A stretch of 64,000 nt of DNA from an uncultured Gammaproteobacteria bacterium (GTDB lineage: Bacteria > Patescibacteriota > Microgenomatia > Levybacterales > GWA1-39-11): positions 601,827 through 665,826 of the forward strand of contig CAYRKM010000001.1 in assembly GCA_964425075.1 (NCBI GenBank), read 5' to 3'. Position 1 is the first letter of the stretch. The number at the start of each line of letters is the position of its first letter. Both the position numbers and the translations under genes were made by a program. Of the stretch, positions 5,071-49,466 are shown piece by piece. Under the pieces are notes generated by a model that saw only the letters and a list, made by a program, of their open reading frames with translations, was not told the DNA's origin and searched no databases.

Positions 5071-5338
5071 GTATTGGTTCTGAAGTTATAGTAGGTTTAA
5101 TTGGGGGTTCAAATTTTGGCTTTGACTGAGCTGCCTTTTTTAGATCCTCCTCTGTTGCAGGTTTGATTTCAAAACCCCCATCTCGAGCGATGACAGCCAC
5201 TGGCTTTTTGCTTCTCTGCGCCATAAGTGATGCTACATCATGCAACTCCCTATCTCTTGTGTCATCCTGAGGCACATCAGTTCTAACTGCCTCATTTGGT
5301 TTGACTATTTCTTTTACTTCAATACCTTCTTCATTCAT
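4973..5338 (-). CDS. Hypothetical Pro/Lys-rich protein (possibly N-terminal part of a frameshifted gene continuing in 4540..5070)
   Basis: ORF only; 98-bp out-of-frame overlap with downstream ORF suggests frameshift or miscalled start. Confidence 0.25.
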   Translation of the reverse strand: MNEEGIEVKEIVKPNEAVRTDVPQDDTRDRELHDVASLMAQRSKKPVAVIARDGGFEIKPATEEDLKKAAQSKPKFEPPIKPTITSEPILEPVGGKSQGKPWSNHVSKHGIPGGPGRYRKG

Positions 5339-5350
5339 ATTTTTTGCCCA

Positions 5351-5386
5351 AAAAAAACTCCCTTTTTTAGGGAGTCGTGTTTTTCT
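5351..5386. terminator. Intrinsic-terminator-like hairpin flanked by A-tract and T-tract (bidirectional)
   Basis: aaaaaaaACTCCCttttttaGGGAGTcgtgttttt; 6-bp GC-rich stem with oligo-A upstream and oligo-T downstream. Confidence 0.45.
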
Positions 5387-14744: not shown

Positions 14745-16550
14745 ATGAAATCATTAAAAGCAGTAGCACAACTAGAACGCTTGGTATGGGCAGATGTATT
14801 AAGAGTAGTAGCAATTTATTTGGTACTTGTAGTTCATGCTTCCACAATGCCCTCATCAGCCTTTCCATTAAGTAATTCTTGGCCATACATAATTTCCTTT
14901 TCAATTGCAAAAATATGCGTGCCACTTTTTGTGATGTTAAGTGGCGCACTTCTTTTGGAAAAAAAGGAAACTTATAAAATGTTTTTCAAAAAAAGAATTT
15001 TAAAAGTGCTAACCCCTTGGATTGTTTGGACAGCGATTTATATGGGAATTAATTACTACACTAGAGATTTTCAACCACAAACTTTTTCTGAATGGAAATA
15101 TTATTTTACGCTGACTTTCTTTACTGAATTGTGGTTCCTACCTCTTATTTTTTCCATTTATTTATTAACTCCTATTATAAGACTTACCATTCCGTTATTA
15201 AAAAAAACTGACAAGATTTACATCATAATTTTGTGGTTTGTGTGGGTGTCGATTTTACCTTTCTTCAATTCAAGTCCCGCTTTTCCAAAACCATTCAACT
15301 CAGGACTTCTTTCATTGGCCGTATATTTTTCCGGGTACTTTCTTTTGGGCCATTTTTTAACAAAAATTAAGTATCCCAAGAATACTTTATGGTTCTCAAG
15401 TGTACTAATTATATTAGGCATACTAATTAATTTTGTTTCACTCTTTTTAGTTAATGAAAACGAATTAGTTCAATACCAAAGTTCTATTTTTGACTATATA
15501 GCACCTGATGAGTGGGGTTCAAACTCAATTGTTATTTCAAAATATGGAGCCAGAATAACCGTCGCATCAACTGAACAAAGCATAAGAGGATTAAGACACG
15601 GTGAGTATCGCCCAGACTTAGTCATATGTGATGATGTGGAAGATTTGAATAGTGTTAAAACACGAGAAGGTAGAGATAAAACATTTCAATGGTTAGTAGG
15701 AGAAGTTTTGCCAATTGGAGATCAGGGGACAAAGATTGTCATTGTAGGAAACCTACTACATGAAGATAGTCTCTTAATGAGATTGAAACAAGGAATCGAA
15801 AACCAAAAGTTAAATGGTAAGTTTTTTGCTTATCCACTCTTAGGCAAGGATAATGAAATTGCATGGAAGGATAAATTTCCTTCTCAAATCGATGTTGAGA
15901 AATTGCGCTCAAGTATAGGAACTGATTCAGCATGGTATAGAGAGTACCTTCTTCGAATCATCTCTGATGCAGAACGACTAGTCCATCCTGAGTGGATTGC
16001 CTATTACGATAAATCGCCTTCTGAAAGAGCTAATGGATTTAGATTTATTGCAACAGGTGTTGATCTTGCTATATCGCAAAAGGACTCAGCCGATTTCACA
16101 GCAATGGTGTCTGCAAAAATATTCGGACAGAAAGATGATCTAAGAGTTTATATCTTACCTTTCCCAATTAACAAAAGACTTAGTTTTCCAGAAACTTTTG
16201 AACAAGCAAAGAATCTTTCTGAAAATTTAGGAAATGGTCTTTACACAATGCTCTATATTGAAGATGTTGGGTATCAACAATCTTTAATCCAACACTTACA
16301 GGGGAATAATATTCCTGCAGTTGGAGTAAAGGTGTCAGGACAAGACAAAAGAGCAAGGCTTGCTTTAATAACCCATCTTATAAAACAAGGTAAAATACTT
16401 TTCCCGAAAAAAGGAGCAGAAGAATTAATACAACAGCTTACAGGTTTTAGCATTGAGAAGCATGACGATTTGGCAGATGCATTTTCCCTTCTAATTCTCA
16501 AGATTCAGGAGATGGATAATAAGCCTACATTCGATTACAGTTTTATCTAG
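14745..16550 (+). pseudogene. Chimeric ORF: acyltransferase-3 family membrane protein N-terminus (aa 1-~246) fused in frame to C-terminal ~355 aa of a phage terminase large subunit (lacks ATPase Walker A)
   Basis: N-terminus has Acyl_transf_3 pattern (LRVVAIYLVLVVHA, VPLFVMLSGALLL); from ~15483 the protein is ~85% identical by eye to residues ~132-490 of TerL at 29787..31313. Confidence 0.6.
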
Positions 16551-16885: not shown

Positions 16886-17386
16886 ATGGCATTATCTGAA
16901 GAACAGAAAATCAAAATTAAAGAAGAAGAGAAAAAGAAGCTTGAGGAAGAGAAATATAGAGAGAATGTAAAGAAAAATCTTAAAAAGGGACCTTGGTGGA
17001 AACCTAGGGGAGTATTAGCGTGGGTCGCAGTAGTCTTTATAATTGGATGGATTATTTATGCTGTATCTACCAACTCTTCTACAAGTACACCTCCTAAAGA
17101 TACAACTAATCTAGATGGAAATGTTTCCTATAATGATTTGCAATTCAAGGTAAGTAATACCGAACAAAAAGATTGGGAATATTGCCACTTTACTCTAAAT
17201 AATGATTATCATTATCCGGGAAGCTCTTTTAGCGATAAAGCTGGGCCAATTAAGGCTGGTGAAACTGTGTTTATTAATGCGTCAAATTTTGCAAAAAGCG
17301 ATGGTACGAGATTTAATCCCTATTCGGTAAAGCCACAGGCTATAAATGTAGATTGCAACGGAAGATTCGGCTACTGGAAATGGTAA
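16886..17386 (+). CDS. Membrane-anchored DUF4352-like protein with Lys/Glu-rich N-terminal coiled coil
   Basis: KKGPWWK then TM helix then beta-rich extracellular domain; positional equivalent of DUF4352 gene at 31663. Confidence 0.4.
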   Translation: MALSEEQKIKIKEEEKKKLEEEKYRENVKKNLKKGPWWKPRGVLAWVAVVFIIGWIIYAVSTNSSTSTPPKDTTNLDGNVSYNDLQFKVSNTEQKDWEYCHFTLNNDYHYPGSSFSDKAGPIKAGETVFINASNFAKSDGTRFNPYSVKPQAINVDCNGRFGYWKW

Positions 17387-17456
17387 ACCTCAAGCTATCC
17401 TTATAAGATTCTCCTACTAGACTTCACAAAACACCTGCGGTACCTTGTGTCCTGAG

Positions 17457-18797
17457 ATGGATAACAGTAACGTATTAGCAAGAGCACCTATAGTTTCATT
17501 ACCTACAACTGAATACTGTCTTTATGCCAGAAAATCGACAGAAGATGACGAAAGACAAGCTATGTCAATCGATTCTCAAATTAAGGAGATGAATGATATG
17601 GCTATACGAGACGGTCTGTTTATCAAAGAAATCCGCCAAGAGAAACATTCGGCTAAAATGTCTGGACAAAGGCCAGTATTTGCAAAATTAATTGAAGATA
17701 TTCGAATTGGAATGTTTACAGGCATTTTGACATGGGCGCCAGATAGATTAAGTAGAAACGCAGGCGACTTAGGGATGTTGGTAGATCTTATGGATCAGGG
17801 AAGCTTACATCACATAAAAACCTTTTCTCAAAGTTTTTCTAATAATCCGAATGAGAAATTTTTACTTATGATCCTATGTTCTCAGGCGAAATTAGAAAAT
17901 GATCAAAAAGGAATAAATGTTAAAAGAGGAATTCGTGCAAAATGTTCAATGGGCTGGCGTCCAGGGATGCCGCCCATCGGTTATTACAATAGAGCTTTTA
18001 ATGGAGTGAAAGATATAATTGTAGATCCTGATAGAGGCCCAATAATCAGAGAAATGTTTGATCGAGTAGCAAAAAATGGAGATAGTGGTAAGACTTTAAA
18101 GAAGTGGCTAGACACTTGCTTAACCACTAGAGCTGGAAAGAAAGTGACACTAAGCCAGATTTATATGATGCTTAAAAATCCTTTTTACTACGGGGAATTT
18201 GAATATCCTATAAACAGCGGCAATAGATATAAAGGAGCTCATCCACCTTTAATATCTAAGGAAATATTTGATGAGGTACAAAATCAACTAACTGCACCCA
18301 AGAGAGGCTGGGGATTTAAAACATTTGCCTTTAAAGATTTATTTAAATGTGGGAATTGTGGGTCAAGTGTAATTGGAGAAGAAAGGTGGAGAAAGAGAAA
18401 AGCAAGACCCCCAGTTCATCACGTCTATTATCATTGTACGCGGCAGAAAAATTGGGATTGTAAAGAACCGTATCTAACGGAGGAAAAATTAATAAAAGAA
18501 TTACTACGATATATCAATTTTAACGTTATTGCCCATCCACAAACTATAAATATTACTCCGGAGCTAAAAAGATATATGAATGAATACGAAAAAGCTAGAG
18601 AAATAACCCTCCTCCAGCAAGATATTGATCCAGACCACATCCAGTTTGGAATCTATGAATATTCTCAATATGCACTTAAGAACGGCTCAATTGAGGAGAA
18701 AAGAGAAGTAATAACTTCAATAAAAACACAGCTGTATATTCACAATCAGTTTATTAGTTCATTATCTAAAGTAAATGATGCACTAGTATCTAGTTGA
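17457..18797 (+). CDS. Large serine recombinase (resolvase catalytic domain + recombinase domain + zinc ribbon)
   Basis: YARKSTEDDERQ nucleophile-serine motif, recombinase domain, CGNCGS...YYHCTRQ zinc ribbon; ~80% identical by eye to paralog at 47374. Confidence 0.85.
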   Translation: MDNSNVLARAPIVSLPTTEYCLYARKSTEDDERQAMSIDSQIKEMNDMAIRDGLFIKEIRQEKHSAKMSGQRPVFAKLIEDIRIGMFTGILTWAPDRLSRNAGDLGMLVDLMDQGSLHHIKTFSQSFSNNPNEKFLLMILCSQAKLENDQKGINVKRGIRAKCSMGWRPGMPPIGYYNRAFNGVKDIIVDPDRGPIIREMFDRVAKNGDSGKTLKKWLDTCLTTRAGKKVTLSQIYMMLKNPFYYGEFEYPINSGNRYKGAHPPLISKEIFDEVQNQLTAPKRGWGFKTFAFKDLFKCGNCGSSVIGEERWRKRKARPPVHHVYYHCTRQKNWDCKEPYLTEEKLIKELLRYINFNVIAHPQTINITPELKRYMNEYEKAREITLLQQDIDPDHIQFGIYEYSQYALKNGSIEEKREVITSIKTQLYIHNQFISSLSKVNDALVSS

Positions 18798-18832
18798 TTT
18801 TGTTAGTGGATATCATGTTATGATAGTTACAT

Positions 18833-21505
18833 ATGCCACAACTATTCAAATCAATATATTTCCCTGATTATAATTCTGACAACAAAGAATCAAAATCATT
18901 TACGTTGGCATTTTCAGATAAGGATCAAGACATTTATGAACTATTAAGGACATCATCGAGCTTAGAGGTAAGAAGTTTATTATCAGTATTTTCATTTTCG
19001 GAATTAATTGATAAAGCTAATCAAGAAAGTCTACCTTTAAATACCTACTGTTTATGGAAAATCAGAAAAAACTTACAAAAGATTACCAGTCAAAATAAAA
19101 CTAACATCCAAACTAACTTATTTCCGCTAGATCCAGTACAGGTTACATTTGAAGGAGGAAAAAACTTACCCCTTCAATCTTGGTATCCCTACCTTGAAGG
19201 ATATTCTCCAGATTTTGTCGAGCACATTATAAAGAATTATTTAACACAGAACACAAGAACAGTTTATGATCCTTTTTCTGGATCTGGAACTACCCCTCTT
19301 GTAGCCTCATCTTTGAAGTATGATTCTTACTATTCAGAAATAAATCCCTTATTGCAATTTTTATCACAAACAAAATTCAGAGCTAAAAACATTAAAGATA
19401 AAAAAAAGACTATATCTAAGCTCACGATAATAAATAACACTCTTAAAAGTAAGATTCTAGCTTCTGATGAAGATATAGATCTTCGAGAAAACTATATTAG
19501 AACCTTTGGAAAGAGTAAGTTTTTCGATGATAAAGTTTTCTCTAACGTTTTAAGGACAAAGACGTATCTTAGGAGACTCGCTAAGCTAGATAGCTTGACA
19601 GCGGATTTAGTATGTACGGCAATCCTAGGAAGTTTAATAAAAGTATCTCTTTTAAAAAGGCAAGGTGATCTAAGGTATAAAACTAAAGATGAATTATCTA
19701 AAACAAAGACAGCTGAATATTTTGAAACTATACAGGCAAATCTGCAAAACATAATAAATGACATTTCGAATCTAAAGAAAGCTCCAGAGCCTATCTTCCT
19801 TACAGATGATGCAAGAAAAATAAAAGATTTAGACAAAATTGGTATAGACGCAGTAATAACTAGCCCCCCCTATCTGAACGGTACTAATTACTTTAGGAAT
19901 ACAAAGTTAGAGTTATGGTTTTTGGGATATTTAAAATCATTAAGTGATTTGACTGACTTTAGGCAACAGGCAGTAACTGCGGGTATTAATGACGTCTCTT
20001 TAAAAATTGAAAAGCAAATAGAAAATGAACTTCTTAAGGAGCTTTTGAAAGAAATTAATAAATCTGCATACGATCGAAGAATTCCTAAAATGATTCATGA
20101 TTATTTTGCAGATATGCAAACTATCTTTGAAGGATTAAAGAAACATTTAAATGATAATGCAGTTTTGGCTATCGATTTGGGAGATTCAATTTACAGTAAT
20201 GTTCATGTTAGAACTGACGAAATCCTGATTTCAATATTAAAACAATTAGGATATGAATTTGAGAGAAGCATTGTTTTGCGAAGACGGATATCCAAGAATG
20301 GCGAAGAACTGAGACAGGTGTTATTAATATTTAAATATAGACAATCCAAGCAGCCCAAAATAATCCCTATGAATAAATCTAATAAATGGGATCAGGATTG
20401 GAGTAAGTTTAAAAACGATTTGCCTCATCAGCAAATTCCATTATCAAAGAGAAATTGGGGAGATCCTATACATTCTTTGTGTTCATATCAAGGTAAGTTA
20501 AAGCCTTCTATTGCTCATATGTTAACCTCGATTTTTGTACCACCTAATGGCTCAGTATTAGATATTTTTGCAGGAGTTGGAACTATTCCACTAGAAGCCT
20601 CTCTCCAAGGAAAAAAATCATTTGGATTTGATATAAGTGCTCCTGCTGTTGCGATATCAAGAGCAAAATTATCTAAGATTTCAAGCGATAAAACTTATGA
20701 AATAATAAATGATCTTGAACAATATATTTTAAGCGGTAGAACTGACAAGTCTGAGCTTTCAAAAGCCCAAACATTTGGATTCAATAAGAAATTAATCGAT
20801 TACTTTCATCCAAATACATTAAAAGAGATTTTGTTAGCACGGGAATACTTCGGGAAGATAGGATATGATACACCAGAAAAGTCTATAGTTCTTGCCTCTA
20901 TTCTTCACATTCTTCATGGAAATAGACCGTATGCATTGAGTAGAAGATCTCACGGAATTACACCCTTTGCGCCTACAGGCGAATTTGAATATAAAAACCT
21001 TATAACTAAACTCAAAGAAAAAGTTTCCAGATCATTAAAATATGTTGATAGAAGTAATTTTGTAGAAGGAAATATGTATTTTCAAAATGCTCTAAATGAG
21101 TGGCCTAAAGAGATAAAGAATTTAGATGCAATCATCACAAGTCCGCCTTTCTTTGATAGTACGAGATTTTATCTTTCTAATTGGATGAGGATATGGTTTG
21201 CTGGCTGGGATGAAGAAAACTTCAAAACAGACTCTGTCGATTTCATAGAAGAATTACAAAAGAAAGATTTTTCCGTATATGACTCAATTTTTAAACAAGC
21301 CCGTGAGCGATTGAATAAAAATGGCGTATTTGTGATGCACTTAGGGAAAAGTAACAAGTGTAATATGGCAAAAATATTATCAGAAAAATCCAAGCCGTGG
21401 TTCAATACTTACGATATCTTTGAGGAAAGTGTAAGGACGGGAGAATCACATGGAGTCACAGATAAAGGAACAGTAGTCGACCATCAATATTTGGTATTAA
21501 ATTAG
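18833..21505 (+). CDS. Tandem two-domain DNA methyltransferase (two alpha-class N6A/N4C MTase domains)
   Basis: Motif I VYDPFSGSGTT + motif IV ITSPPYLNGTNYF in first half; VLDIFAGVGTIP + ITSPPFFDSTRFY in second half. Confidence 0.8.
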   Translation: MPQLFKSIYFPDYNSDNKESKSFTLAFSDKDQDIYELLRTSSSLEVRSLLSVFSFSELIDKANQESLPLNTYCLWKIRKNLQKITSQNKTNIQTNLFPLDPVQVTFEGGKNLPLQSWYPYLEGYSPDFVEHIIKNYLTQNTRTVYDPFSGSGTTPLVASSLKYDSYYSEINPLLQFLSQTKFRAKNIKDKKKTISKLTIINNTLKSKILASDEDIDLRENYIRTFGKSKFFDDKVFSNVLRTKTYLRRLAKLDSLTADLVCTAILGSLIKVSLLKRQGDLRYKTKDELSKTKTAEYFETIQANLQNIINDISNLKKAPEPIFLTDDARKIKDLDKIGIDAVITSPPYLNGTNYFRNTKLELWFLGYLKSLSDLTDFRQQAVTAGINDVSLKIEKQIENELLKELLKEINKSAYDRRIPKMIHDYFADMQTIFEGLKKHLNDNAVLAIDLGDSIYSNVHVRTDEILISILKQLGYEFERSIVLRRRISKNGEELRQVLLIFKYRQSKQPKIIPMNKSNKWDQDWSKFKNDLPHQQIPLSKRNWGDPIHSLCSYQGKLKPSIAHMLTSIFVPPNGSVLDIFAGVGTIPLEASLQGKKSFGFDISAPAVAISRAKLSKISSDKTYEIINDLEQYILSGRTDKSELSKAQTFGFNKKLIDYFHPNTLKEILLAREYFGKIGYDTPEKSIVLASILHILHGNRPYALSRRSHGITPFAPTGEFEYKNLITKLKEKVSRSLKYVDRSNFVEGNMYFQNALNEWPKEIKNLDAIITSPPFFDSTRFYLSNWMRIWFAGWDEENFKTDSVDFIEELQKKDFSVYDSIFKQARERLNKNGVFVMHLGKSNKCNMAKILSEKSKPWFNTYDIFEESVRTGESHGVTDKGTVVDHQYLVLN

Positions 21506-22548
21506 TATCCTAAAAGTTTTTTATTTGCGTCAGAAAGTTGTTCGACTAAATTATAGTCTTCAAGTAATTTCTTAATATCGTCAATTCTCCTACTTAAGTC
21601 CGTTGCAGATCTCACTGTCAGTAATCTTGTTACACACGCATTTACATCAATACGAGGATTAAGAATAGGCTCTCTTTTTGATATTAGCGATAAATCAGCT
21701 CCTGTAATCTGAGCTAAGCGTATAAGTTCCTCATTGGTATAAAAATCACTAGGCCACTTGTCGTTTTTCGCTGCATTTGCTTTTGTTGAGAGTAATGCTG
21801 CATTTTGTGAACTGAGAGGATAAAGCCACCTAGATGGCAAAATGTGATCGATTGCCCACGATCCTCTATCAGATTTGTCAATAATGATACCGGTTTTAAA
21901 ACATTTAGAATCAAATCGTTCAAACAATTCGTCTAAATCGACGGTTTGATTCTCACCCTCAAGTAGTAATTCAGCGGCTCTACGTTTGCTGGAAGATTCA
22001 TGTAGTTGTTGTTGCGTTCTTAGTGGGTTTAAGGTTGTGTTAATAACGGCTTTACAGCTTCTGCATTCAAGTTGTTTCTCCAGAGGTCCCCATCCAACGT
22101 GACGATCGAACGCCGACCCGGGAAGAACTCTACCACAGGTTCCGCACTGTTTCCAATAATTAGCTTTATCTGCTACTGCAATTCTAAAAAACGCTCTCCA
22201 AAATCGTTCTATATGCAAATCTCCTGGTAGGGTGTATTCTTCCTTCCAGTTTGTAAAAGGTGTTTCCTTGCCTGACGCATCAGTTAATGGTAATCCTGAC
22301 TGTCTTGAGTGAATATATCCACAAAAATCACATTTCCATTCTTCATTATCGTAAGCTTCTGTTTCCGATAGCAATCGTTCACCAATAGAATGCTTGTTAA
22401 GCATGTTACAACGTAGGCAATTAAAAATTACCCAGACATCATTGGGTTTTGCCCCAGCAATCCTAGGAATTTCCGTCCTGTTTGTAGTTGATCTTCTTGG
22501 CATATTGTTGCTTGTATTATATCCTAAGTGCCTTCTAAAGAAAAACAC
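21502..22548 (-). CDS. HNH-family endonuclease with zinc-ribbon (candidate restriction endonuclease partner of tandem MTase); start uncertain
   Basis: Multiple CxxC pairs (CLRC, CDFCGY, CGTCG, CRSC) and AIDHILP...N HNH-like motif; convergent and 4-bp overlapping with MTase. Confidence 0.55.
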   Translation of the reverse strand: MFFFRRHLGYNTSNNMPRRSTTNRTEIPRIAGAKPNDVWVIFNCLRCNMLNKHSIGERLLSETEAYDNEEWKCDFCGYIHSRQSGLPLTDASGKETPFTNWKEEYTLPGDLHIERFWRAFFRIAVADKANYWKQCGTCGRVLPGSAFDRHVGWGPLEKQLECRSCKAVINTTLNPLRTQQQLHESSSKRRAAELLLEGENQTVDLDELFERFDSKCFKTGIIIDKSDRGSWAIDHILPSRWLYPLSSQNAALLSTKANAAKNDKWPSDFYTNEELIRLAQITGADLSLISKREPILNPRIDVNACVTRLLTVRSATDLSRRIDDIKKLLEDYNLVEQLSDANKKLLGY

Positions 22549-22692
22549 CTATGATTGGAATTCGAACCGCAACCTCGGTATTCAGATGTTTAAAGGTGTG
22601 AATAGTGAGGGTACGGTGAGATACTAACACGTGCTTGCTGAGAGGCTCGGTCTAGAACCTTCTTATCCTTATAACGATTGTCTCACATCAAG

Positions 22693-22730
22693 GCTAAATG
22701 AGACAAACGAGACACTATAAAAAAGGGTGT
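22693..22730 (+). repeat. Copy A of conserved hairpin motif (aGGCTAAATGAGACAAAyGAGACACyATAAAA)
   Basis: Near-identical 38-nt stretch also at 53786-53822; contains GTCTCA...TGAGAC stem. Confidence 0.6.
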
Positions 22731-22788
22731 CTTATTTTCTATAATATCCCATAACAACACAACAGATAAATGATATATTTTGATATAG

Positions 22789-23382
22789 TTGTGTTTCTGC
22801 CCTTTAATTATGGCAAGGGCAAGAAAATATACAACATTTAATAGGGCAAGGCTTATGTTATTTACTCATTCATATGCCTGTTATGCTATTACTTGCCATG
22901 TAAAAACGAAATATAAAATTAATGATAACCTAACGCCACGAGAATTACGAAAGAGATATATCAATAAGAGAATTATTCCAGAAATTTCTAGGCTTTCTTA
23001 TTCGCTACATTTTGACTACGAAGTTCTATGGAGAGCAATACTATTGAATAAAAAGCCGCTACTGAGTAAGCAGGTAAGAAGCAGTGATGGAATTAGGTTA
23101 TATCTTGCCATCGAGGACGAACTGATTGCTCTTGCCGAATCAAAAAGGCACAGATCACGAGACTTTTTCGACCCTGATTATGAAAATGAATATGCGCTAC
23201 TCAGTATTGCAATAGAACGAGCAGCAGGAAGTCTTCTTAATGACGTAGAGGATGACTTTGTCTTTGATCAGCAATGTGAAGAAATGAAGAAGATATGTTT
23301 CAAGTGGTATTACAAAATTGCGTATCGATATAAACTGCCGACAACAAGAATTGTCCCGTTTGTTTTGAGACTTATCAGCTGA
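22789..23382 (+). CDS. Hypothetical protein (start uncertain)
   Basis: ORF only; convergent with helicase gene, 4-bp gap. Confidence 0.35.
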   Translation: MCFCPLIMARARKYTTFNRARLMLFTHSYACYAITCHVKTKYKINDNLTPRELRKRYINKRIIPEISRLSYSLHFDYEVLWRAILLNKKPLLSKQVRSSDGIRLYLAIEDELIALAESKRHRSRDFFDPDYENEYALLSIAIERAAGSLLNDVEDDFVFDQQCEEMKKICFKWYYKIAYRYKLPTTRIVPFVLRLIS

Positions 23383-23385: not shown

Positions 23386-26300
23386 TTATTGACTGGCTAT
23401 CACTTCTAAGTTTATTGCGTGTGTTTCTTTAAGATAATTTTCTGTAACGGCGAGTAGTTCTAGTTGACTATTACTTGCTTGGTTTTTAGATAAACCTGGC
23501 TGAACAACTGTGATTGTAAATTCAGGAATAAGATAAGGTACTTTATTTCTTATTTCTTCGAGTTTTTCTAAATCACCTTTTTCAAATCTTGAAACCAATC
23601 CTTTCTTTTGTCGACTCACCTCACGTAAAGTTAAGTGATCGATAAGTTTTTGTATATCATCTCTCCAATGAACACTTTTTTGTGCTTGACCGCAAACTGC
23701 ATATAGATCTTCGACTCTTGCTCCGGGAGTGGCAGATTGGGAGAACTTACAATGGTATAAATCAACTATTAATTTCTCCTCTGTCATTTTAATTCCTATT
23801 ACATCCGCAGCTTCATAGGAATCGTCATCGTCAAAAACGACATCATATTGTGAATCGTGGGTATCCTTTAGTGCCTCTTGTATGACTCGATATTGTATTG
23901 AGTCAGTATCTTTATTTACTGTCTGCGATTCTTTACTCAAATCAATACCATTCCAGTCCCATATTTGAATCTTATCCTTATCAAAAGGTGCAGGCGGATC
24001 AGCAGGATTTTCAAAAAGAACGTTGTATTGTAGGTATGAATCGTTTTCAAAACGAACAATAGGAGAATTCTCTTTTAACCAATCAGGAAGGGATTGTGGT
24101 TTTCTCGCAATTATAATTTGTGCAGTGTCTTGCCCAGTCGGTAAATACTCAACATTGTTATTATTAAATGCAATTTTATATTCAACACTTTTGTTTTCAC
24201 TAAAAACCTGGAACTTTATTGGGCCTGTTTTATTAAAGTCCGTTAACTCAATACCTGCTTCATACAATGGAATCGTCTCTCCCGCGATATTTAGTTCAAC
24301 AGTTTCCTCGCTTTTCAAGAGTAAGTCTTCTGGCCACTCTATTGTTAGCGGTACGAGGTTTGGCCGTTGTGTTATTAAAGTTGGGCGCAATACATATTTA
24401 AGAATATCTGTTGCAGAAAAAGTATCATCAAGTAATTTTGTGCCTGTTTTTCGGCACCATTCAATCCATTCCGAGATATCATCTGCTATTTTATAAGACC
24501 AAATCCTCCCTTTGTAAGATGACCCGATGCTTGTTTTACTACCATTCTCAAAACCTCTTCCAAAAAGATTGGATTTAATCCTATTTTGTTGCTGAGCGTC
24601 CGAGATTGCTGATAGTATGTCTGATCCAACATACATTGTGAATCGCATTGCTCGATTTAAGGAATGTGTTAAGCCAAGATTCATAAGGCTTAATCTATTG
24701 ATCCCAGAGAGAGTACGAAACACTTGTTCTCCACGAACTATTTCAACATCATCGCCACAAATAGCTTTTGCTAATTCCCCATGGAAGGACCTGTTGTTTG
24801 AGCTATTGATAAATAATAATTTTTGAGCTTCATCCCAATGAATCAAATACAGATCCCAAATCGTATTATGGATATCCTTAAAATTGCCCCAAGAAATTGG
24901 TTCTTTCTCGCAGGTAACAAAGAACACGACTTTTTCTCCTTGATTTACAGTAGGGTCAATAAAAAGCCTAGATTCTTTTACTACTTTTGGTATGTTTTCG
25001 GGAGTCCACCGCGTATTATTTGTTTTATAAACAACAGTGCTCATTTTAGGCAAAATATTTTGAGGTAAGAATTCTGGAGGCAAATCCACAAATCCTTCAA
25101 AAAACTGAGATAGCTTTTCCTGTTTGGTAGTCGCTCCTTCACTTAAGTTCCGTAGTAATTTATCCCAATCAGCATCTTCTGCATATAAGTCTTTTAACGC
25201 TTCTTCAACACCAGGGTTGGCGATATTTGCAACAATCGTTGCGGAACCAATATTTGGTTTTGTTCTTGTAAATCTTCCTGTAAACTGCAATGTAATGGCA
25301 AGACCTTTATGCACATCATGGAGTGCTGCAATTTTTAATTCAGGTAAGTCAAAACCTTCTCCAAACATGTCAACACATACAATAATTCTTGATTTTCTTT
25401 CATTTATTTCATTAAGAGATTGGCGTTTTTCAGCCACTTTTTTCTTACTATGAAAAAGTTGAGGATTATGATTTGCGCCGTGTTGTTGGTAAATAGCAAA
25501 TATATCTCGCGCACGAGTTATACTATCTGCTCGCGCCAAGATAATATGGTCTAGATTTTGTGCAAGGTCTTCTTCCAGCTTTTTGATTGCTCTTTTGGCA
25601 ATAGTCTCATCGGCACGTTGTTTATTATAATCTCTTACACCAATAAAACTGATTTGCTTGAAATACCCTTCGCTTTGCGCTTTTCGTAATGGATAATTAA
25701 AAATTACCTTTCCATCAATATGTCTTCCATCTCCTCTAAAAGGTGTGGCGGTAAATTGTAATATGGTTTTTTCTTTGAAGAATTTTCTGAATTTTTGCCA
25801 AGTTGGTGCTGAAATATGATGTGCCTCATCTATAAAAAGGTACGTAGCTGTTCCAGCCATTGCCTTTTGAATTTCTTCTGAGCATCCACCTACTATTGCC
25901 ATTGTCGTTATCACCACATTGCATGACCCAAAAAATTTATTTACCTCATCTACTGTTTTGAGTCGATGCTCGAGGGTCCCCACGATAGGATTTTCTGCTT
26001 TCCTTCCAACAGCTCCAATTTTTCTTAATAATCCGAGACCTAGGAATTTATTCGTGATCTGATCTCTTAGCGCATCTGTTGGTACAACTACTAGGATTTT
26101 ATCTATTCGCTCGCAAACCATAAGTGCAAGCATTGTTTCCGTTTTTCCTGTACCAGTAGGCATAACAATGGTGGCTGATGCGTTTGTTACTTTCCAATGA
26201 GCGAGTGCGGCATGGAGTGCACCGATTTGGGGCGGACGCAATCCTTCTTCAAGAATTTGATCATTTTCTCGTTTTTCTTCGACGAAAGAGAATTGCTTAT

Positions 26301-26466
26301 CCCAGGATTTAATTACTTTTTCGCAAGATCTGGGGAATGTAGCAATTCTTCTATTACTAAGTGTTAACGCTCTAGGTTTATCGCCGGAAAATGTAGCAGA
26401 TTTATTAACCTGCCTAATAGGATTACCTAATACTTTTGTGTTGATTATAAATTGATCATTATTCAC
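23386..26466 (-). CDS. SF2 helicase (DEAH, Type III Res-like) with ~500-aa C-terminal extension containing a PD-(D/E)xK-like motif
   Basis: Motif I MPTGTGKT, motif II FIDEAHH, motif III TATP, motif VI QFTGRFTR; C-terminal DVIGIKMTEEK pattern. Confidence 0.75.
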   Translation of the reverse strand: MNNDQFIINTKVLGNPIRQVNKSATFSGDKPRALTLSNRRIATFPRSCEKVIKSWDKQFSFVEEKRENDQILEEGLRPPQIGALHAALAHWKVTNASATIVMPTGTGKTETMLALMVCERIDKILVVVPTDALRDQITNKFLGLGLLRKIGAVGRKAENPIVGTLEHRLKTVDEVNKFFGSCNVVITTMAIVGGCSEEIQKAMAGTATYLFIDEAHHISAPTWQKFRKFFKEKTILQFTATPFRGDGRHIDGKVIFNYPLRKAQSEGYFKQISFIGVRDYNKQRADETIAKRAIKKLEEDLAQNLDHIILARADSITRARDIFAIYQQHGANHNPQLFHSKKKVAEKRQSLNEINERKSRIIVCVDMFGEGFDLPELKIAALHDVHKGLAITLQFTGRFTRTKPNIGSATIVANIANPGVEEALKDLYAEDADWDKLLRNLSEGATTKQEKLSQFFEGFVDLPPEFLPQNILPKMSTVVYKTNNTRWTPENIPKVVKESRLFIDPTVNQGEKVVFFVTCEKEPISWGNFKDIHNTIWDLYLIHWDEAQKLLFINSSNNRSFHGELAKAICGDDVEIVRGEQVFRTLSGINRLSLMNLGLTHSLNRAMRFTMYVGSDILSAISDAQQQNRIKSNLFGRGFENGSKTSIGSSYKGRIWSYKIADDISEWIEWCRKTGTKLLDDTFSATDILKYVLRPTLITQRPNLVPLTIEWPEDLLLKSEETVELNIAGETIPLYEAGIELTDFNKTGPIKFQVFSENKSVEYKIAFNNNNVEYLPTGQDTAQIIIARKPQSLPDWLKENSPIVRFENDSYLQYNVLFENPADPPAPFDKDKIQIWDWNGIDLSKESQTVNKDTDSIQYRVIQEALKDTHDSQYDVVFDDDDSYEAADVIGIKMTEEKLIVDLYHCKFSQSATPGARVEDLYAVCGQAQKSVHWRDDIQKLIDHLTLREVSRQKKGLVSRFEKGDLEKLEEIRNKVPYLIPEFTITVVQPGLSKNQASNSQLELLAVTENYLKETHAINLEVIASQ

Positions 26467-27333: not shown

Positions 27334-28626
27334 ATGTTGAACGCACATACTAAACAAGAGAACCCATATTCTATCGTTTATGTTTCAGCTCAAGAACTTC
27401 GCCCCGCTGAATACAATCCAAGAAAATGGGATGAGGAAGCTGCCAAGCAATTAACGGAGAGTATTAAGCGCTTCGGATTGATAGATCCCATTATTGCGAA
27501 TGGTGCATCTAATCGAAAAAATATTGTAATTGGTGGACATTTCAGACTCGAAGTAGGAAAAAGACTAGGTATAGAAAAAGTACCTGTGGTTTATGTTAAT
27601 ATCCCCAATCTTCAGAAGGAAAAGGAGTTGAATCTACGTCTTAACCGCAATACTGGAGAATGGGATTTTGAACTTCTGAAATCATTTAATGTCGAGCTGT
27701 TACTTGATGTTGGATTTGATGATAGCGATCTTTCACACATTTGGGATGATAACTTGGGAGTCGAAAATGACGACTTTGATGTTAAAAAAGAAATTGAAAA
27801 GATCAAAGAACCAAAAAGCAAATGGGGAGATATATACCAGCTTGGATCGCACCGACTTATTTGTGGAGACGCGACAGATCCCGAAGTACTCAAAAAGCTA
27901 GTACAGGATGACAAGATATCCATGCTCTACTGCGATCCCCCATATAATATCTCGCTCGATTACAGCAACGGGATTGGAACAAATGGAAAATATGGCGGGA
28001 AAACGAATGACAAGAAATCTGAAGAAGAATATAAAGCGTTTCTCAAGAAAACGCTTGAAAATGGGCTATCAACTGCTTTTCCTGATGCACACGTGTTTTA
28101 TTGGTGTGATGAAAATTACATTGGACTAATCCAGGGAATATACAAGGAACTTGGGATTATAAACAAACGAGTTTGTCTTTGGATTAAGAATAACCAGAAC
28201 GTCACTCCACAAACTGCATTTAATAAAGTGTATGAACCATGCGTTTATGGTATTCAAGGTAATCCGTATCTTTCCGAATCAGTCAAAAACCTGAATGAGG
28301 TTCTCAATAAAGAGGTAGGAACAGGAAATCGACTGACAGATGATATCCTTGACCTTTTTAATATATGGCTAGCAAAACGTCTTCCTGCACAAGAATACGA
28401 ACATCCGACAGAAAAACCACCAACACTCCATGAAAAAGCATTACGTCGTTGCACGAAAGCTGGAGACATCGTGCTTGATGTATTCGGTGGCTCCGGATCT
28501 ACTCTCATTGCGTGTGAACAACTCAAACGCAGAGCATATCTTTGCGAAATTGAGCCTATTTTTTGTGACCTTATTATCAAGCGCTTCGAGAAGTTGACTG
28601 GACAGGAGGCAAAGCTATGCAAATAA
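27334..28626 (+). CDS. ParB-like nuclease domain fused to beta-class DNA methyltransferase
   Basis: N-terminal ParB/Srx fold (VIGGHFRLEVGKRLG); motif IV CDPPYNI then motif I VLDVFGGSGSTLIA. Confidence 0.8.
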   Translation: MLNAHTKQENPYSIVYVSAQELRPAEYNPRKWDEEAAKQLTESIKRFGLIDPIIANGASNRKNIVIGGHFRLEVGKRLGIEKVPVVYVNIPNLQKEKELNLRLNRNTGEWDFELLKSFNVELLLDVGFDDSDLSHIWDDNLGVENDDFDVKKEIEKIKEPKSKWGDIYQLGSHRLICGDATDPEVLKKLVQDDKISMLYCDPPYNISLDYSNGIGTNGKYGGKTNDKKSEEEYKAFLKKTLENGLSTAFPDAHVFYWCDENYIGLIQGIYKELGIINKRVCLWIKNNQNVTPQTAFNKVYEPCVYGIQGNPYLSESVKNLNEVLNKEVGTGNRLTDDILDLFNIWLAKRLPAQEYEHPTEKPPTLHEKALRRCTKAGDIVLDVFGGSGSTLIACEQLKRRAYLCEIEPIFCDLIIKRFEKLTGQEAKLCK

Positions 28627-29372: not shown

Positions 29373-29790
29373 TCCGACGATTCAGAAGCGAATAGATAAA
29401 AATCAGGAACTACTTATTGAGCAGCTTAAGAAAACGCCAATTGTTCAAGTTGCGTGTGAGAAAGTCGGGGTAGGCCGAGCTACTTATTACCGATGGAGAA
29501 AAGAAAATGAAGTATTTGCCGAACAAGCAGATGAAGCAATAGCTGAAGGAGCGTTACTTGTGAATGACATGGCCGAGTCCCAACTCATGGCAGCGATTCG
29601 GGATAAAAATCTCACAGCCATCATTTTCTGGTTGAAGCACCATCACCCTCACTACGCAACGAAAGTTGAAGTGACGGCTAGACTAAAAGCTGATAACGAA
29701 GTTTTAACGCCTGAACAAGAAGCACTAGTAACGAAAGCATTAAAACTTGCCTCATTAATTCCTGAAACAAAGGAGGAAGTAAAACAATGA
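29362..29790 (+). CDS. Terminase small subunit-like HTH protein
   Basis: VACEKVGVGRATYYRWRKE helix-turn-helix; immediately upstream of and overlapping TerL. Confidence 0.5.
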   Translation: MENNPTIQKRIDKNQELLIEQLKKTPIVQVACEKVGVGRATYYRWRKENEVFAEQADEAIAEGALLVNDMAESQLMAAIRDKNLTAIIFWLKHHHPHYATKVEVTARLKADNEVLTPEQEALVTKALKLASLIPETKEEVKQ

Positions 29791-33422: not shown

Positions 33423-34580
33423 ATGCAATTATCAAAACACATATATACAATTGCTTCATTTGTTTTTGTAATATTCGTATTGGGACTAGCCTTTTTCTCC
33501 GATAAAATAGCTGCTACTAATAACTCAACTGTTAAACAAAATCAAGCCGCAGAAAAATTATATGTAGCCTTAGAGGATGATGGTGCAATCGCTGTGATTG
33601 ATACAAAAGATAATTCACTTCTTGGCAAAATCGATCTTACAGAAAAGAATGGGGAGATGGAAGTCGGTTACTCAGCTCATAATGTGCAGGTAGCACCGGA
33701 TGGCAAAAGTGTTTGGGTAACTGCAAACTTTATGGGTCTTGGGGGACATGAAGGAGAAAATGATACCACTGAAAATGAAGAAACAAAAGAAGCATTTTCA
33801 GACCAAGTGATAATCATTGATCCCCAAAAGGATTCTATAGTAAAACGTATTGATATAGGAGCTGATCAGCATCTTGCCCACATAGTTGTAACCAGGGGCG
33901 GAAAAACTGCCTTTGCTACCGCGCAGGAACCAGGACTGGTATATAAAATAAACGGTGTAACATACGAAGTCGAGAAAACTATCCCTCTTACAAAAGATGC
34001 AGAGCCGCATGGTCTAAGACTTTCAGCAGATGACACAAAAGCTTTTGTTGCACTTATAGATGGAAAAGGCATTGGTGTAGTCGATACCAGAACAAATGAA
34101 GTAAAAACTGTCCCACTTTCAGGAAGCGCTGTACAAACAGCGGTTATTCCTAATACTAACTATATTGCAGCTTCGGTGTACGATACAAAGCAGATAGCAT
34201 TTTATGATACCGTTACAGGGGAAGTTTCCTATGTAGATTTACCTGCTGAATCTGAAGGCGCAATCCAATCATATGCTACACCAGATGGAAGGTATTTATA
34301 TATTGCAGATCAAGGATATTACTTCGGCAAACCAACAAGTGATTATGTGTATGTTATTGATGTTCAAGGGAAGCAGGTTGTTGGCAAAATTCAGGCAGGT
34401 GTTGCGCCTCACGGTGTTGTAGTGTCCCCTGATGGGAAAAGAGCGTATATTACAAATCTTTTAAGTGATGACATTTCAGTTATTGATACAGCCACTGATA
34501 AAGAACTTACCAAAATAAAAGTTGGAAAAATGCCAAATGGTATTAGCTTGTGGTCACACCAATCGGGAGGTACACCTTAA
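33423..34580 (+). CDS. Secreted YVTN-family beta-propeller repeat protein
   Basis: Signal/TM then repeated ~40-aa units (YVxxxxDxxIxVIDT) typical of YVTN beta-propeller. Confidence 0.55.
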
Positions 34581-47304: not shown

Positions 47305-47373
47305 TTTTGATTAATCCTCATAGTATTTTGCGTCTGGACTTCAAAGAACGGTTGCGGTACCTTGTCCCCTGAT

Positions 47374-48702
47374 ATGAACTACCAGAATGAATTATTACAG
47401 CAACCAACTCAAACACAACCGCTGGTTATTGAATATTGTCTCTACGCACGAAAATCCACAGAAGATGACGAGCGCCAAGCGATGTCAATCGATTCTCAAA
47501 TTAAAGAGATGACTGACATGGCGATCAAAGAAGGACTCTTTATCAAAGAAATCAGACGAGAAAGTCATTCTGCTAAAATGTCAGGACAACGACCAGTCTT
47601 CAATCAACTTCTCAATGACTTAAGAAATGGTCTATTCACCGGAATTCTCACATGGGCTCCGGATCGATTATCAAGAAATGCAGGAGATTTAGGAATGCTG
47701 GTTGATATGATGGATGGCGGAAAACTCATTCACATTAAAACATTTACGCAGGCATTCTCAAACAGTCCAAGCGATAAATTTTTACTCATGATTCTCTGCT
47801 CTCAAGCAAAACTCGAGAATGACCAAAAAGGGATAAATGTTAAACGAGGTATCAGAGCTAAATGCAATATGGGATGGAGACCAGGGATGCCACCAATCGG
47901 TTATTTCAACAGAGCAATGGCTGGGATAAAAGATATTATTCCTGACCCTGAAAGAGCACCATTTGTGACAGAAATGTTTGAAAGAGTTGCGAGGAACGGA
48001 GATAGTGGACGAACACTCAAAAAATGGCTGGATACATGCCTTACAACAAGGGCGGGAAAGAGAGTCACGCTAAGTCAGATTTATCTCATGCTCAAGAATC
48101 CTTTCTATTACGGGGAATTTGAATATCCAATTGGAAGCGGTAATTGGTATAAGGGATCACATAAGCCATTAATTACCAAAGAGCTATTTGATCAAGTCCA
48201 GAAACAACTTACAGTGCCATTTAAAAAAGCAAAATGGGGAAGCAAAATGTTTACCTTCAAAGAACTCTTTAAATGTGCAAGCTGCGGATCATTAGTAATT
48301 GGTGAGGACAGATATAGAAAGAGAAAATATGGAGAGCCGAGGTATCATATCTACTATCATTGTACTAGACAAAAGAAGTACGGCTGTCCTGAGCCATACT
48401 TAACAGAAGAAAAGCTTGTAAAGCAAATTCTTCGATATCTTAATTTTATGTACATGGCACACCCGCAAATATTTACCTTCAAGGAATTTATAAAACAAAG
48501 CATGGAAGCATATAAGAAAATGAGAGACGAAATTCTCTGGGCGCAAGATATAAACCCTGAGAATAAGCCTGTACATTTTATGGATTATGCAAATTATATT
48601 TTCAGAAATGGAACACTGCAAGAAAAACGAGAAATAACGAATATCCTCAATCGACAACTCTATATACACAACGAAACGGTCACTTCAGTACCCCTTATCT
48701 AG
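47374..48702 (+). CDS. Large serine recombinase (paralog of 17457..18797)
   Basis: Same motif set; conserved upstream TGCGGTACCTTGT..CCTGA.ATG shared with paralog. Confidence 0.85.
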   Translation: MNYQNELLQQPTQTQPLVIEYCLYARKSTEDDERQAMSIDSQIKEMTDMAIKEGLFIKEIRRESHSAKMSGQRPVFNQLLNDLRNGLFTGILTWAPDRLSRNAGDLGMLVDMMDGGKLIHIKTFTQAFSNSPSDKFLLMILCSQAKLENDQKGINVKRGIRAKCNMGWRPGMPPIGYFNRAMAGIKDIIPDPERAPFVTEMFERVARNGDSGRTLKKWLDTCLTTRAGKRVTLSQIYLMLKNPFYYGEFEYPIGSGNWYKGSHKPLITKELFDQVQKQLTVPFKKAKWGSKMFTFKELFKCASCGSLVIGEDRYRKRKYGEPRYHIYYHCTRQKKYGCPEPYLTEEKLVKQILRYLNFMYMAHPQIFTFKEFIKQSMEAYKKMRDEILWAQDINPENKPVHFMDYANYIFRNGTLQEKREITNILNRQLYIHNETVTSVPLI

Positions 48703-49267
48703 ATGATTTTCTCTTTCGTTTCTTTAAAACAAAAGCAACTAGTCCTAGTCCCAAAGCACCTCCAATGATGGGTAAAAGCATATTTGTATTAACAGACTTC
48801 TCTACAGTTTCACTTGTCTGGGAACTGGATAAATCCTGAGTATAACCATTTGGTGAATATCCACTGCCAAGAACTGCTCTATCTTCTTCCGAAAGATTTC
48901 CTGTAACTTCTTTATTTCCCATGCATGCATTTGTTTTAAGGTTACCTGAGTCCATTTTTAGAAAAAGGAGATATTTTTTGTCCTCTTCAAACGCAAAATC
49001 GACAGACGTTACTGTACCTGGAGCTTCTTGTCCACTTACCTCAATCTGAGAAGGTCCACCATGACCTTTAAAGTATCGCTCGACATTAAATATAGCTGGA
49101 GTATCAGCTATACTTGTTACTCTACCTAACACGACAATATCTGCCTGTTCTTTATATTCAGCTAATGACACAGCAGGAGCACAGGAAGCAAAGGCAACAT
49201 GAGGAGTAAAGGATAAGAGCGAAAAAAGTGCGATTATAAAGGTAAATAGTATATTTCTAAGTTGCAT
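48695..49267 (-). CDS. Secreted protein with signal peptide and C-terminal TM anchor plus basic tail
   Basis: N-terminal hydrophobic leader; C-terminal LLPIIGGALGLGLVAFVLKKRKRKSSR sorting-signal-like segment. Confidence 0.4.
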   Translation of the reverse strand: MQLRNILFTFIIALFSLLSFTPHVAFASCAPAVSLAEYKEQADIVVLGRVTSIADTPAIFNVERYFKGHGGPSQIEVSGQEAPGTVTSVDFAFEEDKKYLLFLKMDSGNLKTNACMGNKEVTGNLSEEDRAVLGSGYSPNGYTQDLSSSQTSETVEKSVNTNMLLPIIGGALGLGLVAFVLKKRKRKSSR

Positions 49268-49466
49268 GTTTATAAAAGGATTATACCAAAAATTTTCTGT
49301 TTGAATCCTAACTCTGCGGTTAAGTAGGACATATATGAACCTTAGCCTTAATATGGGGATTTTGAGGGTGTTTTGCCGGTCCGAATGTTTCCCGTCTTGA
49401 AGGGGATTTTAGCAAGCCCCTTCAAGCTAAATAGGGAATACGGTCACTCTAGGGTGCCCGTCTCAG

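What the first reader, a model, noticed from the sequence alone, without database searches (positions are those of the whole stretch)
18833..22548. Candidate Type IIS-like restriction-modification pair: double-headed methyltransferase plus HNH zinc-ribbon endonuclease
An 890-aa protein carries two complete alpha-class amino-MTase domains in tandem (each with FxGxG and SPPY/SPPF). This is as expected for enzymes that methylate both strands of an asymmetric site. It is convergent with, and 4 bp overlapping, a 348-aa protein with several CxxC knuckles and an AIDHILP HNH-like motif. The pair sits directly downstream of a serine recombinase, i.e. mobile defence cargo.
Basis: partly seen in the sequence, partly recalled or inferred. 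Interest (0 to 1): 0.55.

Follow-up and report, generated by a model that had tools for sequence, protein, structure and literature searches.

The report
Mobile restriction-modification cassette with HNH nuclease
This is a real but fairly ordinary bacterial defence gene pair: a double DNA methyltransferase and an HNH DNA-cutting enzyme, carried with a serine recombinase as a small mobile cassette that normally sits at the end of a tRNA-Gln gene.

Summary
An 890-aa protein (18833-21505, +) contains two homologous, complete amino-methyltransferase modules. It converges on, and overlaps by 4 bp, a Cys-rich protein with an HNH motif. Homologues put that protein's start at 22503, so it is 333 aa, not 348.

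Both refutation tests failed to refute:
- **Linkage:** 76 of 80 species-level genomes across many phyla carry the same double methyltransferase directly downstream and convergent. The other four loci are contig ends or a truncated copy.

A Psychrobacter plasmid carries a split M1/M2 version with a controller-like regulator. The best reading is a Type II restriction-modification system for an asymmetric site. The Type IIS cleavage geometry, the recognition site and the methylated base remain untested.

The pair plus the recombinase forms a discrete ~5.2-kb unit. A relative with 87% DNA identity sits in a different genomic context and ends exactly at tRNA-Gln(CTG). The recombinase family lies next to tRNA 3' ends (37 of 37 in one orientation) with variable, often defence, cargo.

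The pair is a new member of a known kind. The recombinase platform is the more interesting by-product.

The parts
17397..17456 (.). Left end of the cassette. This non-coding stretch upstream of the recombinase carries a conserved motif (CTAGACTTC ... GCGGTACCTTG). It may be a promoter/leader, an att half-site, or both.
   Evidence: It aligns with the region upstream of the paralogous recombinase at 47314-47376 (74.6% over 63 bp) and with L001. A related motif lies upstream of recombinases that are only 45% identical. A loose regular expression for it matched in 25 of 80 family loci.
17457..18797 (+). Large serine recombinase. It is 446 aa from the ATG at 17457; the mechanical ORF starts at a TTG at 17445.
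   Evidence: Pfam Resolvase 63.5 bits, Recombinase 54 bits and Zn_ribbon_recom 32 bits, all above their cut-offs. PHROG integrase family, E 1.7e-60. Homologues are 440-446 aa. The YARKS catalytic-serine motif is invariant.
18833..21505 (+). Fused double DNA amino-methyltransferase (890 aa). The N-module is about aa 100-502 and the C-module about aa 520-890. Each has motif I (FxGxG) followed by motif IV (SPPY or SPPF).
   Evidence: Pfam N6_N4_Mtase 75.6 bits against a cut-off of 26.7. PADLOC MTase_II, E 3.7e-70. The halves are homologous. AlphaFold model pLDDT 84.4. The catalytic motifs are invariant in 36 homologues.
21502..22503 (-). Putative restriction endonuclease (333 aa). Its layout is: an N-terminal domain with zinc ribbon 1 (C29/C32/C58/C61); zinc ribbon 2 (C120/C123/C147/C150); an HNH catalytic core (D219, H220, N234, N243, K246); and a C-terminal helical region.
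22504..22640 (.). Right end of the cassette: the non-coding region upstream of the nuclease gene. It contains a GAGGGTACGGT motif about 25-30 nt from the boundary.
   Evidence: The 86.7% DNA homology with locus L001 runs from 17510 to 22640 and stops exactly where L001 has the 3' end of tRNA-Gln(CTG). A similar motif lies next to the tRNA in other family members.
22637..22665 (-). Degenerate fragment resembling the 3' end of tRNA-Gln (T-arm plus the acceptor 3' strand), at the position where relatives have an intact tRNA-Gln.
   Evidence: Alignments A5 and A7. Read by eye, its acceptor 3' strand pairs 6 of 7 with the 5' strand of this genome's tRNA-Gln. Neither ARAGORN nor Rfam detects it, so this is tentative.
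47314..49465 (+). Second, paralogous cassette. It holds a recombinase (47362/47374-48702, 68% identical to the first) and a convergent 190-aa protein with a predicted signal peptide and membrane anchor (48695-49267, -). It abuts the intact tRNA-Gln.
   Evidence: The tRNA-Gln(CTG) is at 49466-49537 (-).

Best explanation
The two genes form a Type II restriction-modification system. The 890-aa protein is two methyltransferase modules fused head to tail. Each module most likely methylates one strand of an asymmetric recognition sequence. The SPPY/SPPF form of motif IV points to N4-methylcytosine, but that is a sequence-motif inference only. The 333-aa protein is the cognate endonuclease. A Cas9/McrA-type HNH active site (D219-H220...N234...N243) is embedded between zinc-ribbon and helical domains that presumably recognise DNA, and it cuts unmethylated copies of the site. 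In this genome and in other Patescibacteria the pair rides with a large serine recombinase as a ~5.2-kb cassette (about 17.40-22.64 kb). That cassette normally lies immediately 3' of tRNA-Gln. Here it sits beside only a decayed tRNA-like fragment, while a paralogous cassette occupies the live tRNA-Gln 27 kb away. Shown: gene structures, domain homology, fold, catalytic-residue conservation, pair linkage, cassette boundaries, and the tRNA association. Inferred: enzymatic activities, asymmetry of the site, the base methylated, cleavage geometry, and current mobility.
Confidence: 0.8

Rival explanations
1. The HNH protein is a strand-specific nicking or homing-type endonuclease that promotes spread of the linked methyltransferase gene or cassette. 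On this view it is not a double-strand restriction enzyme.
For: There is only one HNH active site per polypeptide. Zinc-ribbon HNH nickases are common in phages (PMC3592412). The pair is part of a mobile cassette.
Against: The pair is strictly conserved with a protective double MTase in 76 of 80 species, and most of those loci have no recombinase or mobile context. The plasmid relative has a controller-like regulator, as toxic restriction genes typically do. From general knowledge, known Type IIS HNH enzymes also cut both strands with one active site.
Confidence: 0.08
2. The HNH protein is a modification-dependent (Type IV, McrA-like) enzyme, and the neighbouring methyltransferase is an independent or orphan enzyme.
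Against: The similarity is limited to the shared HNH core. No SRA, SBD or other modified-base reader domain was detected. Near-obligate convergent linkage, with overlapping or abutting stop codons, to one specific MTase family across phyla is the signature of a cognate pair.
Confidence: 0.04
3. The 890-aa protein methylates RNA (tRNA or rRNA, m2G type) rather than DNA, and the HNH protein acts on RNA or in an unrelated process.
For: The best structural neighbours are Trm11, Trm14 and TrmN. There are weak UPF0020 and TIGR01177 hits, and JGI names some homologues Trm11. The cassette sits next to a tRNA gene.
Against: Pfam N6_N4_Mtase scores above its cut-off, and the REBASE-derived PADLOC Type II MTase models match full length at E 3.7e-70. 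The RNA-MTase hits fall far below their cut-offs (27.7 against 316 bits). Linkage to an HNH nuclease and a C-protein-like regulator on a small plasmid is R-M-like. Outside Patescibacteria the pair is not found next to a tRNA in most loci.
Confidence: 0.04
4. The pair is part of a larger multi-gene defence system that includes the adjacent 1026-aa ResIII/helicase protein (23386-26466), similar to a Type III or Type ISP system.
For: The helicase gene lies 840 bp away and has ResIII, PbeA-like and Type IV REase-like hits.
Against: Neither the helicase nor ORF197, ORF247 or ORF182 has a homologue in any of the 98 other loci that carry the pair. The homology with L001 ends at 22640, before these genes.
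Confidence: 0.02

Closest known systems
Type IIS restriction endonucleases with an HNH catalytic domain (Eco31I/BsaI, MnlI, HphI, HpyAV). These are recalled from general knowledge of the REBASE literature; HpyAV is cited in PMC3592412.
   Same: A single HNH (beta-beta-alpha-metal) catalytic module is joined to separate DNA-recognition domains. The partner is either two methyltransferases or a fused double methyltransferase for an asymmetric site.
   Different: No sequence relationship to any named enzyme could be tested, because REBASE is not available here. The HNH core is of the Cas9/McrA (HNH_4-like) type and is flanked by two Cys4 zinc ribbons. The recognition site and cut position are unknown.
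Fused two-domain methyltransferases of Type IIS systems, such as M.FokI (general knowledge).
   Same: Two complete amino-MTase modules sit in one polypeptide, each with its own motif I and motif IV. Presumably there is one module per strand.
   Different: The modules carry SPPY/SPPF rather than the DPPY of the Dam-like FokI domains. They have a ~145-aa helical insert between beta2 and beta3. The nearest solved folds are Trm11/Trm14-type.
Unannotated R-M-like locus on Psychrobacter sp. plasmid pA39BP3 (NZ_MN657077.1).
   Same: It has homologous MTase modules (50% and 41% identity) and a homologous zinc-ribbon + HNH core (30%). The R and M genes are convergent.
   Different: Its MTases are two separate proteins (382 and 416 aa). 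Its nuclease is 471 aa with a different N-terminal domain. An HTH controller-like gene precedes the R gene. It is plasmid-borne, with no recombinase.
The unit of Type II R and M genes plus an integrase homologue inserted in a tRNA gene in Xylella fastidiosa (Furuta et al. 2010, PMC2853133).
   Same: A minimal mobile unit made only of an R-M system and a site-specific recombinase, at a tRNA gene.
   Different: That unit is flanked by long direct repeats of the tRNA 3' end and has a weak tyrosine-integrase-like gene. Here the recombinase is a large serine recombinase, no long direct repeats are present, and the boundary lies at the very 3' end of tRNA-Gln.
SCCmec-type cassettes moved by Ccr large serine recombinases.
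   Same: A large serine recombinase moves a cargo cassette into a fixed site at the 3' end of a conserved host gene. The best NCBIfam hits of the recombinase are CcrB (E 1e-22) and XisF.
   Different: The scores are far below the family cut-offs (80.6 against 900 bits). The target is a tRNA rather than rlmH. There is a single recombinase gene, and the cassettes are much smaller (0-7 kb).
HNH domain of Cas9 and of McrA-family nucleases.
   Different: There is no RuvC domain and no RNA-guide apparatus. The protein is a stand-alone 333-aa enzyme with zinc ribbons, paired with a methyltransferase.

Membership tests
Type II restriction-modification system | The nuclease and methyltransferase genes are adjacent and conserved as a pair | tested here: met
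   76 of 80 species loci have the double MTase directly downstream and convergent. The exceptions are three contig ends and one truncated nuclease gene. The same pairing appears.
Type II restriction-modification system | The methyltransferase carries the motifs of DNA amino-methyltransferases | tested here: met
   Pfam PF01555 scores 75.6 bits against a cut-off of 26.7. PADLOC MTase_II, E 3.7e-70. FxGxG and SPP(Y/F) are invariant in both modules.
Type II restriction-modification system | Site-specific cleavage that is blocked by the cognate methylation | not testable with these tools
   This needs enzyme assays or methylome data.
Type IIS subtype | Asymmetric recognition sequence | not testable with these tools
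   There is only indirect support: two diverged MTase modules (22% identity) and a split M1/M2 relative. k-mer avoidance was uninformative.
Type IIS subtype | Separate recognition and cleavage domains, with cleavage at a fixed distance outside the site | tested here: inconclusive
   The model is multi-domain (pTM 0.48). The zinc-ribbon-2 + HNH core is shared with proteins that have other N-terminal domains. The cleavage position is unknown.
HNH / His-Me finger nuclease superfamily | Beta-beta-alpha-metal fold | tested here: met
HNH / His-Me finger nuclease superfamily | Conserved catalytic His with its flanking Asp, plus Asn/Asn metal and structural residues | tested here: met
   D219, H220, N234 and N243 are invariant in 39 sequences. 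They align to the Cas9 D-H...N...N residues.
HNH / His-Me finger nuclease superfamily | Match to a curated Pfam HNH model | tested here: not met
   The window protein has no Pfam family at E <= 0.01. PF13395 is precomputed for only two homologues. The fold supports membership of the superfamily, but the protein belongs to no curated family.
Large serine recombinases | Resolvase catalytic domain, recombinase domain and zinc beta-ribbon, with an N-terminal catalytic serine motif | tested here: met
   All three Pfam domains score above their cut-offs. The YARKS motif is invariant in six family members.
Large serine recombinases | Defined attP/attB sites with a 2-bp crossover, and demonstrated integration or excision | not testable with these tools
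   No empty site or circular form was found. There are only conserved end motifs and the tRNA association.
SCCmec Ccr recombinases | Score above the NCBIfam equivalog cut-off | tested here: not met
   CcrB scores 80.6 bits against a cut-off of 900.

The most novel reading that the evidence does not exclude
The recombinase belongs to a large, undescribed family of Patescibacteria serine recombinases. The metagenome scan found 568 or more relatives. These recombinases insert mini-cassettes immediately 3' of tRNA genes (Gln, Ser, Asn, Glu, Trp, Lys). They appear either alone or with a single cargo module that is often a defence system: this HNH R-M, an unrelated N6_Mtase + MamI R-M, Shedu, a SIR2-like protein, or a Schlafen/AlbA protein. 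This would be a tRNA-targeting serine-integrase platform that shuttles defence genes between genomes of under 1 Mb.
Probability: 0.55. Interest if true: 0.6.

Novelty: new member of a known kind. Interest (0 to 1): 0.36.

Why it matters
The nuclease family is widespread: more than 600 protein clusters and 80 or more species across at least ten phyla. Its members are 46-95% identical, yet it has no Pfam family and, as far as could be checked here, no characterised member. If it is a Type IIS enzyme with a new specificity, it would be a useful reagent and would fill a gap in R-M annotation for candidate-phyla-radiation bacteria. The context adds two points. First, minimal symbiont genomes acquire R-M systems on tiny serine-recombinase cassettes. 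Second, a serine-integrase family appears to favour tRNA 3' ends, a target preference usually associated with tyrosine integrases (for mycobacteria, see PMC10654092). That preference could interest researchers who develop integrase tools.

Tried and rejected
- **tRNA-like fragment:** an Rfam scan of 17200-22900 at E <= 10 gave no tRNA hit for 22637-22665, and ARAGORN does not call it. It is kept only as a tentative remnant.
- **Site avoidance:** k-mer under-representation in the 64-kb window returned only common palindromic 4-mers and no asymmetric candidate site.
- **Promoters and terminators:** the scan found no more sites than in shuffled sequence.
- **Neighbouring genes:** the 1026-aa helicase, ORF197, ORF247 and ORF182 were rejected as system components because they have no homologues in the other loci.
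- **Phage collection:** a protein search with the nuclease found nothing.
- **Solved structures by sequence:** only marginal hits to Cas9 HNH and rubredoxin. For the MTase, one marginal hit.
- **Literature:** no paper was found for pA39BP3 or for serine recombinases at tRNA genes in Patescibacteria.
- **afdb50 fold library:** unavailable.
- **Direct repeats:** none of 9 bp or longer were found between cassette ends and the tRNA, beyond chance 7-9-mers. This fits a serine recombinase but leaves the crossover undefined.
- **11-bp match:** 'TATCCTTATAA' occurs at 17397 and 22666. It was noticed but not treated as an att site, because relatives do not share it.
- **Source genome:** the look-up for the identical MTase returned only a 4.8-kb Logan contig.
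Full report
**Observation.**
- An 890-aa ORF lies at 18833-21505 (+).
- A 348-aa ORF lies at 21502-22548 (-) and overlaps the first by 4 bp.
- A 450-aa ORF lies at 17445-18797 (+), 35 bp upstream of the 890-aa ORF. It has all three domains of a large serine recombinase above the Pfam cut-offs.
- Homologues of the small protein are 323-336 aa and all start at the internal MPRR. The real gene is therefore most likely 21502-22503 (333 aa).
- By the same logic the recombinase starts at the ATG at 17457 (446 aa).

**The methyltransferase.**
- Pfam N6_N4_Mtase scores 75.6 bits against a cut-off of 26.7.
- Residues 102-501 cover a 445-position PADLOC Type II MTase model end to end (E 3.7e-70). Residues 545-819 match other Type II MTase models.
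- The two halves align with each other over their whole length in the same motif order (22% identity, E 8e-12).
- Both motif I and motif IV copies are invariant in 36 homologues that are 48-85% identical to the window protein. Both modules therefore look catalytically competent.
- The AlphaFold model (pLDDT 84.4) shows two Rossmann modules. Each has a ~145-aa helical insert between beta2 and beta3, and a second helical insert after motif IV.
- 'Tandem complete modules' is therefore confirmed. 'Alpha-class' is only loosely right.
- SPPY/SPPF in motif IV is the form classically associated with N4-cytosine enzymes. That rests on established knowledge of motif IV and was not tested here.

**The nuclease.**
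- Pfam gives nothing. Weak profile hits all fall on residues ~200-290 and point to Cas9 HNH domains. A PHROG family annotated 'endonuclease VII' matches residues 130-274 (E 3e-16).
- An alignment of 39 homologues shows invariant C29/C32/C58/C61 and C120/C123/C147/C150, which form two Cys4 ribbons. D219-H220, N234, N243 and K246 are also invariant.
- It also matches EcoKMcrA (7.2), TagI (5.8), Cap5 and DraIII (4.9). Foldseek agrees.
- The nuclease-fold test is passed.

**Linkage.**
- Look-ups of five homologues at 56-95% identity always showed an ~880-892-aa N6_N4_Mtase gene convergent with the nuclease gene.
- A scan of one genome per GTDB species returned 80 loci. They come from Patescibacteria, Bacteroidota, Ignavibacteria, Nitrospirota, Verrucomicrobiota, Elusimicrobia, Planctomycetota, Thermodesulfobacteriota, Firmicutes and others.
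- In 76 of these, tblastn finds the MTase C-half and then the N-half directly downstream on the opposite strand. The other four are three contig ends and one truncated nuclease gene.
- The C-module is more conserved (44-64% identity in most loci; 96% in the near-identical L019) than the N-module (32-58%; 93% in L019).
- The only plasmid hit is a 6.45-kb Psychrobacter plasmid. It carries an HTH regulator overlapping the start of a 471-aa homologue of the nuclease core (30% identity over residues 92-271).
- That homologue converges on two separate MTase genes matching our C-half (50%, E 7e-130) and N-half (41%, E 3e-95). This is the textbook layout: C protein, R, and M1/M2.
- An exhaustive profile search found 481 cluster representatives. 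Many are 400-560 aa and share only profile positions ~143-280 (zinc ribbon 2 + HNH) behind different N-terminal domains. That suggests a portable cleavage module.
- Together these results support a cognate R-M pair acting on an asymmetric site. They do not reveal the site or the cut position.

**What is not part of it.** The neighbouring 1026-aa ResIII/helicase protein and the small ORFs around it have no homologues near the pair anywhere else.

**Mobility.**
- The closest relative (L001; nuclease 95% identical) shares 86.7% DNA identity with the window only from 17510 to 22640. Weaker similarity extends back to ~17397.
- Both flanks differ. In L001 the unit lies between a copper-resistance cluster and tRNA-Gln(CTG), and the homology stops exactly at the tRNA 3' end.
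- tRNA-Gln also adjoins the nuclease gene in L007-L012 and L023.
- In the window that position holds only a decayed fragment resembling the T-arm and acceptor 3' strand (22637-22665). Neither Rfam nor ARAGORN detects it.
- The intact tRNA-Gln is at 49466-49537. It is preceded by a second recombinase (47362-48702; 68% identical) and a convergent 190-aa protein with a signal peptide and membrane anchor.
- The two recombinase genes share a conserved upstream motif.
- A plausible but unproven history has three steps. The R-M cassette inserted first. A ~25-kb island (phage-like genes plus copper resistance) later separated it from the tRNA. The paralogous cassette then took the regenerated site.

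**The recombinase family.**
- A metagenome scan found at least 568 relatives, and 80 loci were fetched.
- A tRNA gene lies downstream of the recombinase in 36 of 60 loci with at least 1 kb of room. One lies upstream in only 1 of 62.
- All 37 nearest downstream tRNAs are on the opposite strand, with their 3' end facing the recombinase. The tRNAs are Ser 11, Gln 10, Asn 6, Glu 4, Trp 3, Lys 2 and Ala 1.
- Nine loci have 300 bp or less between the recombinase and the tRNA, so they are recombinase-only elements. The others carry 0.3-7 kb.
- In L103 (recombinase 69% identical, 826-kb contig) the cargo is an N6_Mtase followed by a convergent MamI-family endonuclease and tRNA-Gln(CTG). This is the same geometry with an unrelated R-M system.
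- Other cargos include Shedu SduA_C, Schlafen/AlbA_2, a SIR2-like domain and a UvrD helicase.
- No long direct repeats flank the elements, as expected for serine recombinases.
- Furuta et al. (PMC2853133) described a unit of Type II R-M genes plus an integrase homologue in a Xylella tRNA gene, so the concept is known. The serine-recombinase version and its breadth in Patescibacteria were not found in the searchable literature.
- In mycobacteria, tRNA attB sites are used by tyrosine integrases, not serine integrases (PMC10654092).

**Source organism.** The identical MTase sequence is listed on an 835,411-bp contig. GC content is 32-41%. The nearest relatives are labelled Parcubacteria or Patescibacteria. 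By inference, the window most likely comes from a candidate-phyla-radiation bacterium.

**Verdict.** It is a new, widespread but uncharacterised member of the Type II (probably IIS) HNH restriction-modification kind, so its interest is modest. The more novel by-product is the tRNA-associated serine-recombinase cassette family that carries it.

Noticed in passing
window 47314-49537; loci L100-L179: A second, paralogous serine-recombinase cassette sits at the intact tRNA-Gln. Family-wide, the recombinase gene is followed by a tRNA on the opposite strand in 37 of 37 cases. Cargo is variable and often defence-related: a MamI R-M, Shedu, a SIR2-like protein and a Schlafen/AlbA protein.
   Followed up: partly
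window 14745-16550: A 601-aa ORF fuses an Acyl_transf_3 domain (aa 14-265) in frame to the C-terminal two-thirds of a terminase large subunit. DNA at 15506-16510 is 72.8% identical to the full terminase gene at 29787-31313. It looks like a deletion or recombination scar joining a host gene to a prophage remnant.
   Followed up: partly
window 22650-22800 and 53745-53865: A ~150-bp repeat has an 86%-identical 50-bp core and a GTCTCA...TGAGAC hairpin, and ends in AAATGATATAnTTTGATATA. One copy abuts the tRNA-Gln-like fragment and the other lies just upstream of tRNA-Glu(CTC). It may be a tRNA promoter/leader or an unknown small RNA.
   Followed up: partly
window 49580-49597: A second copy of the 5' end of tRNA-Gln (cattagacgaactccca) lies about 45 bp upstream of the gene. 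This suggests past rearrangement at this tRNA locus.
   Followed up: no
window 53633-53706: As called by ARAGORN, the 5' acceptor strand of tRNA-Glu(CTC) does not pair with its 3' strand. A better-pairing 5' strand seems to lie ~40 nt further upstream. The gene may contain an insertion or have miscalled ends.
   Followed up: no
window 23386-26466 (-): A 1026-aa protein has an N-terminal ResIII/DEAD helicase with PbeA-like and Type IV REase-like PADLOC hits, followed by ~600 aa of unassigned C-terminal sequence. It is not linked to the R-M pair elsewhere and may be a separate defence gene.
   Followed up: partly
window 27334-28626 and 29787-31313: A ParB-N-terminal::N6_N4 methyltransferase fusion and a terminase large subunit indicate a prophage-like block between the two cassettes. 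A 47%-identical ParB-MTase also lies beside the cassette in loci L007-L012.
   Followed up: partly
window 34550-47304: A copper-resistance cluster includes two P-type ATPases, a DsbD-cupredoxin protein and a multicopper oxidase. The related locus L001 has a similar cluster directly beside its R-M cassette.
   Followed up: partly
locus L099 (Psychrobacter plasmid pA39BP3, NZ_MN657077.1): The genes annotated 'hypothetical protein' at record positions 3961-5376 and 1558-2808 are, respectively, an HNH nuclease homologue and a methyltransferase homologous to the N-module. The plasmid therefore carries an unannotated C-R-M2-M1 restriction-modification system.
   Followed up: yes
locus L021, about 6250-6500 (upstream of its recombinase): The sequence just upstream of the cassette recombinase encodes the C-terminal zinc-ribbon part of another recombinase. 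This suggests tandem cassettes, as in the window.
   Followed up: no
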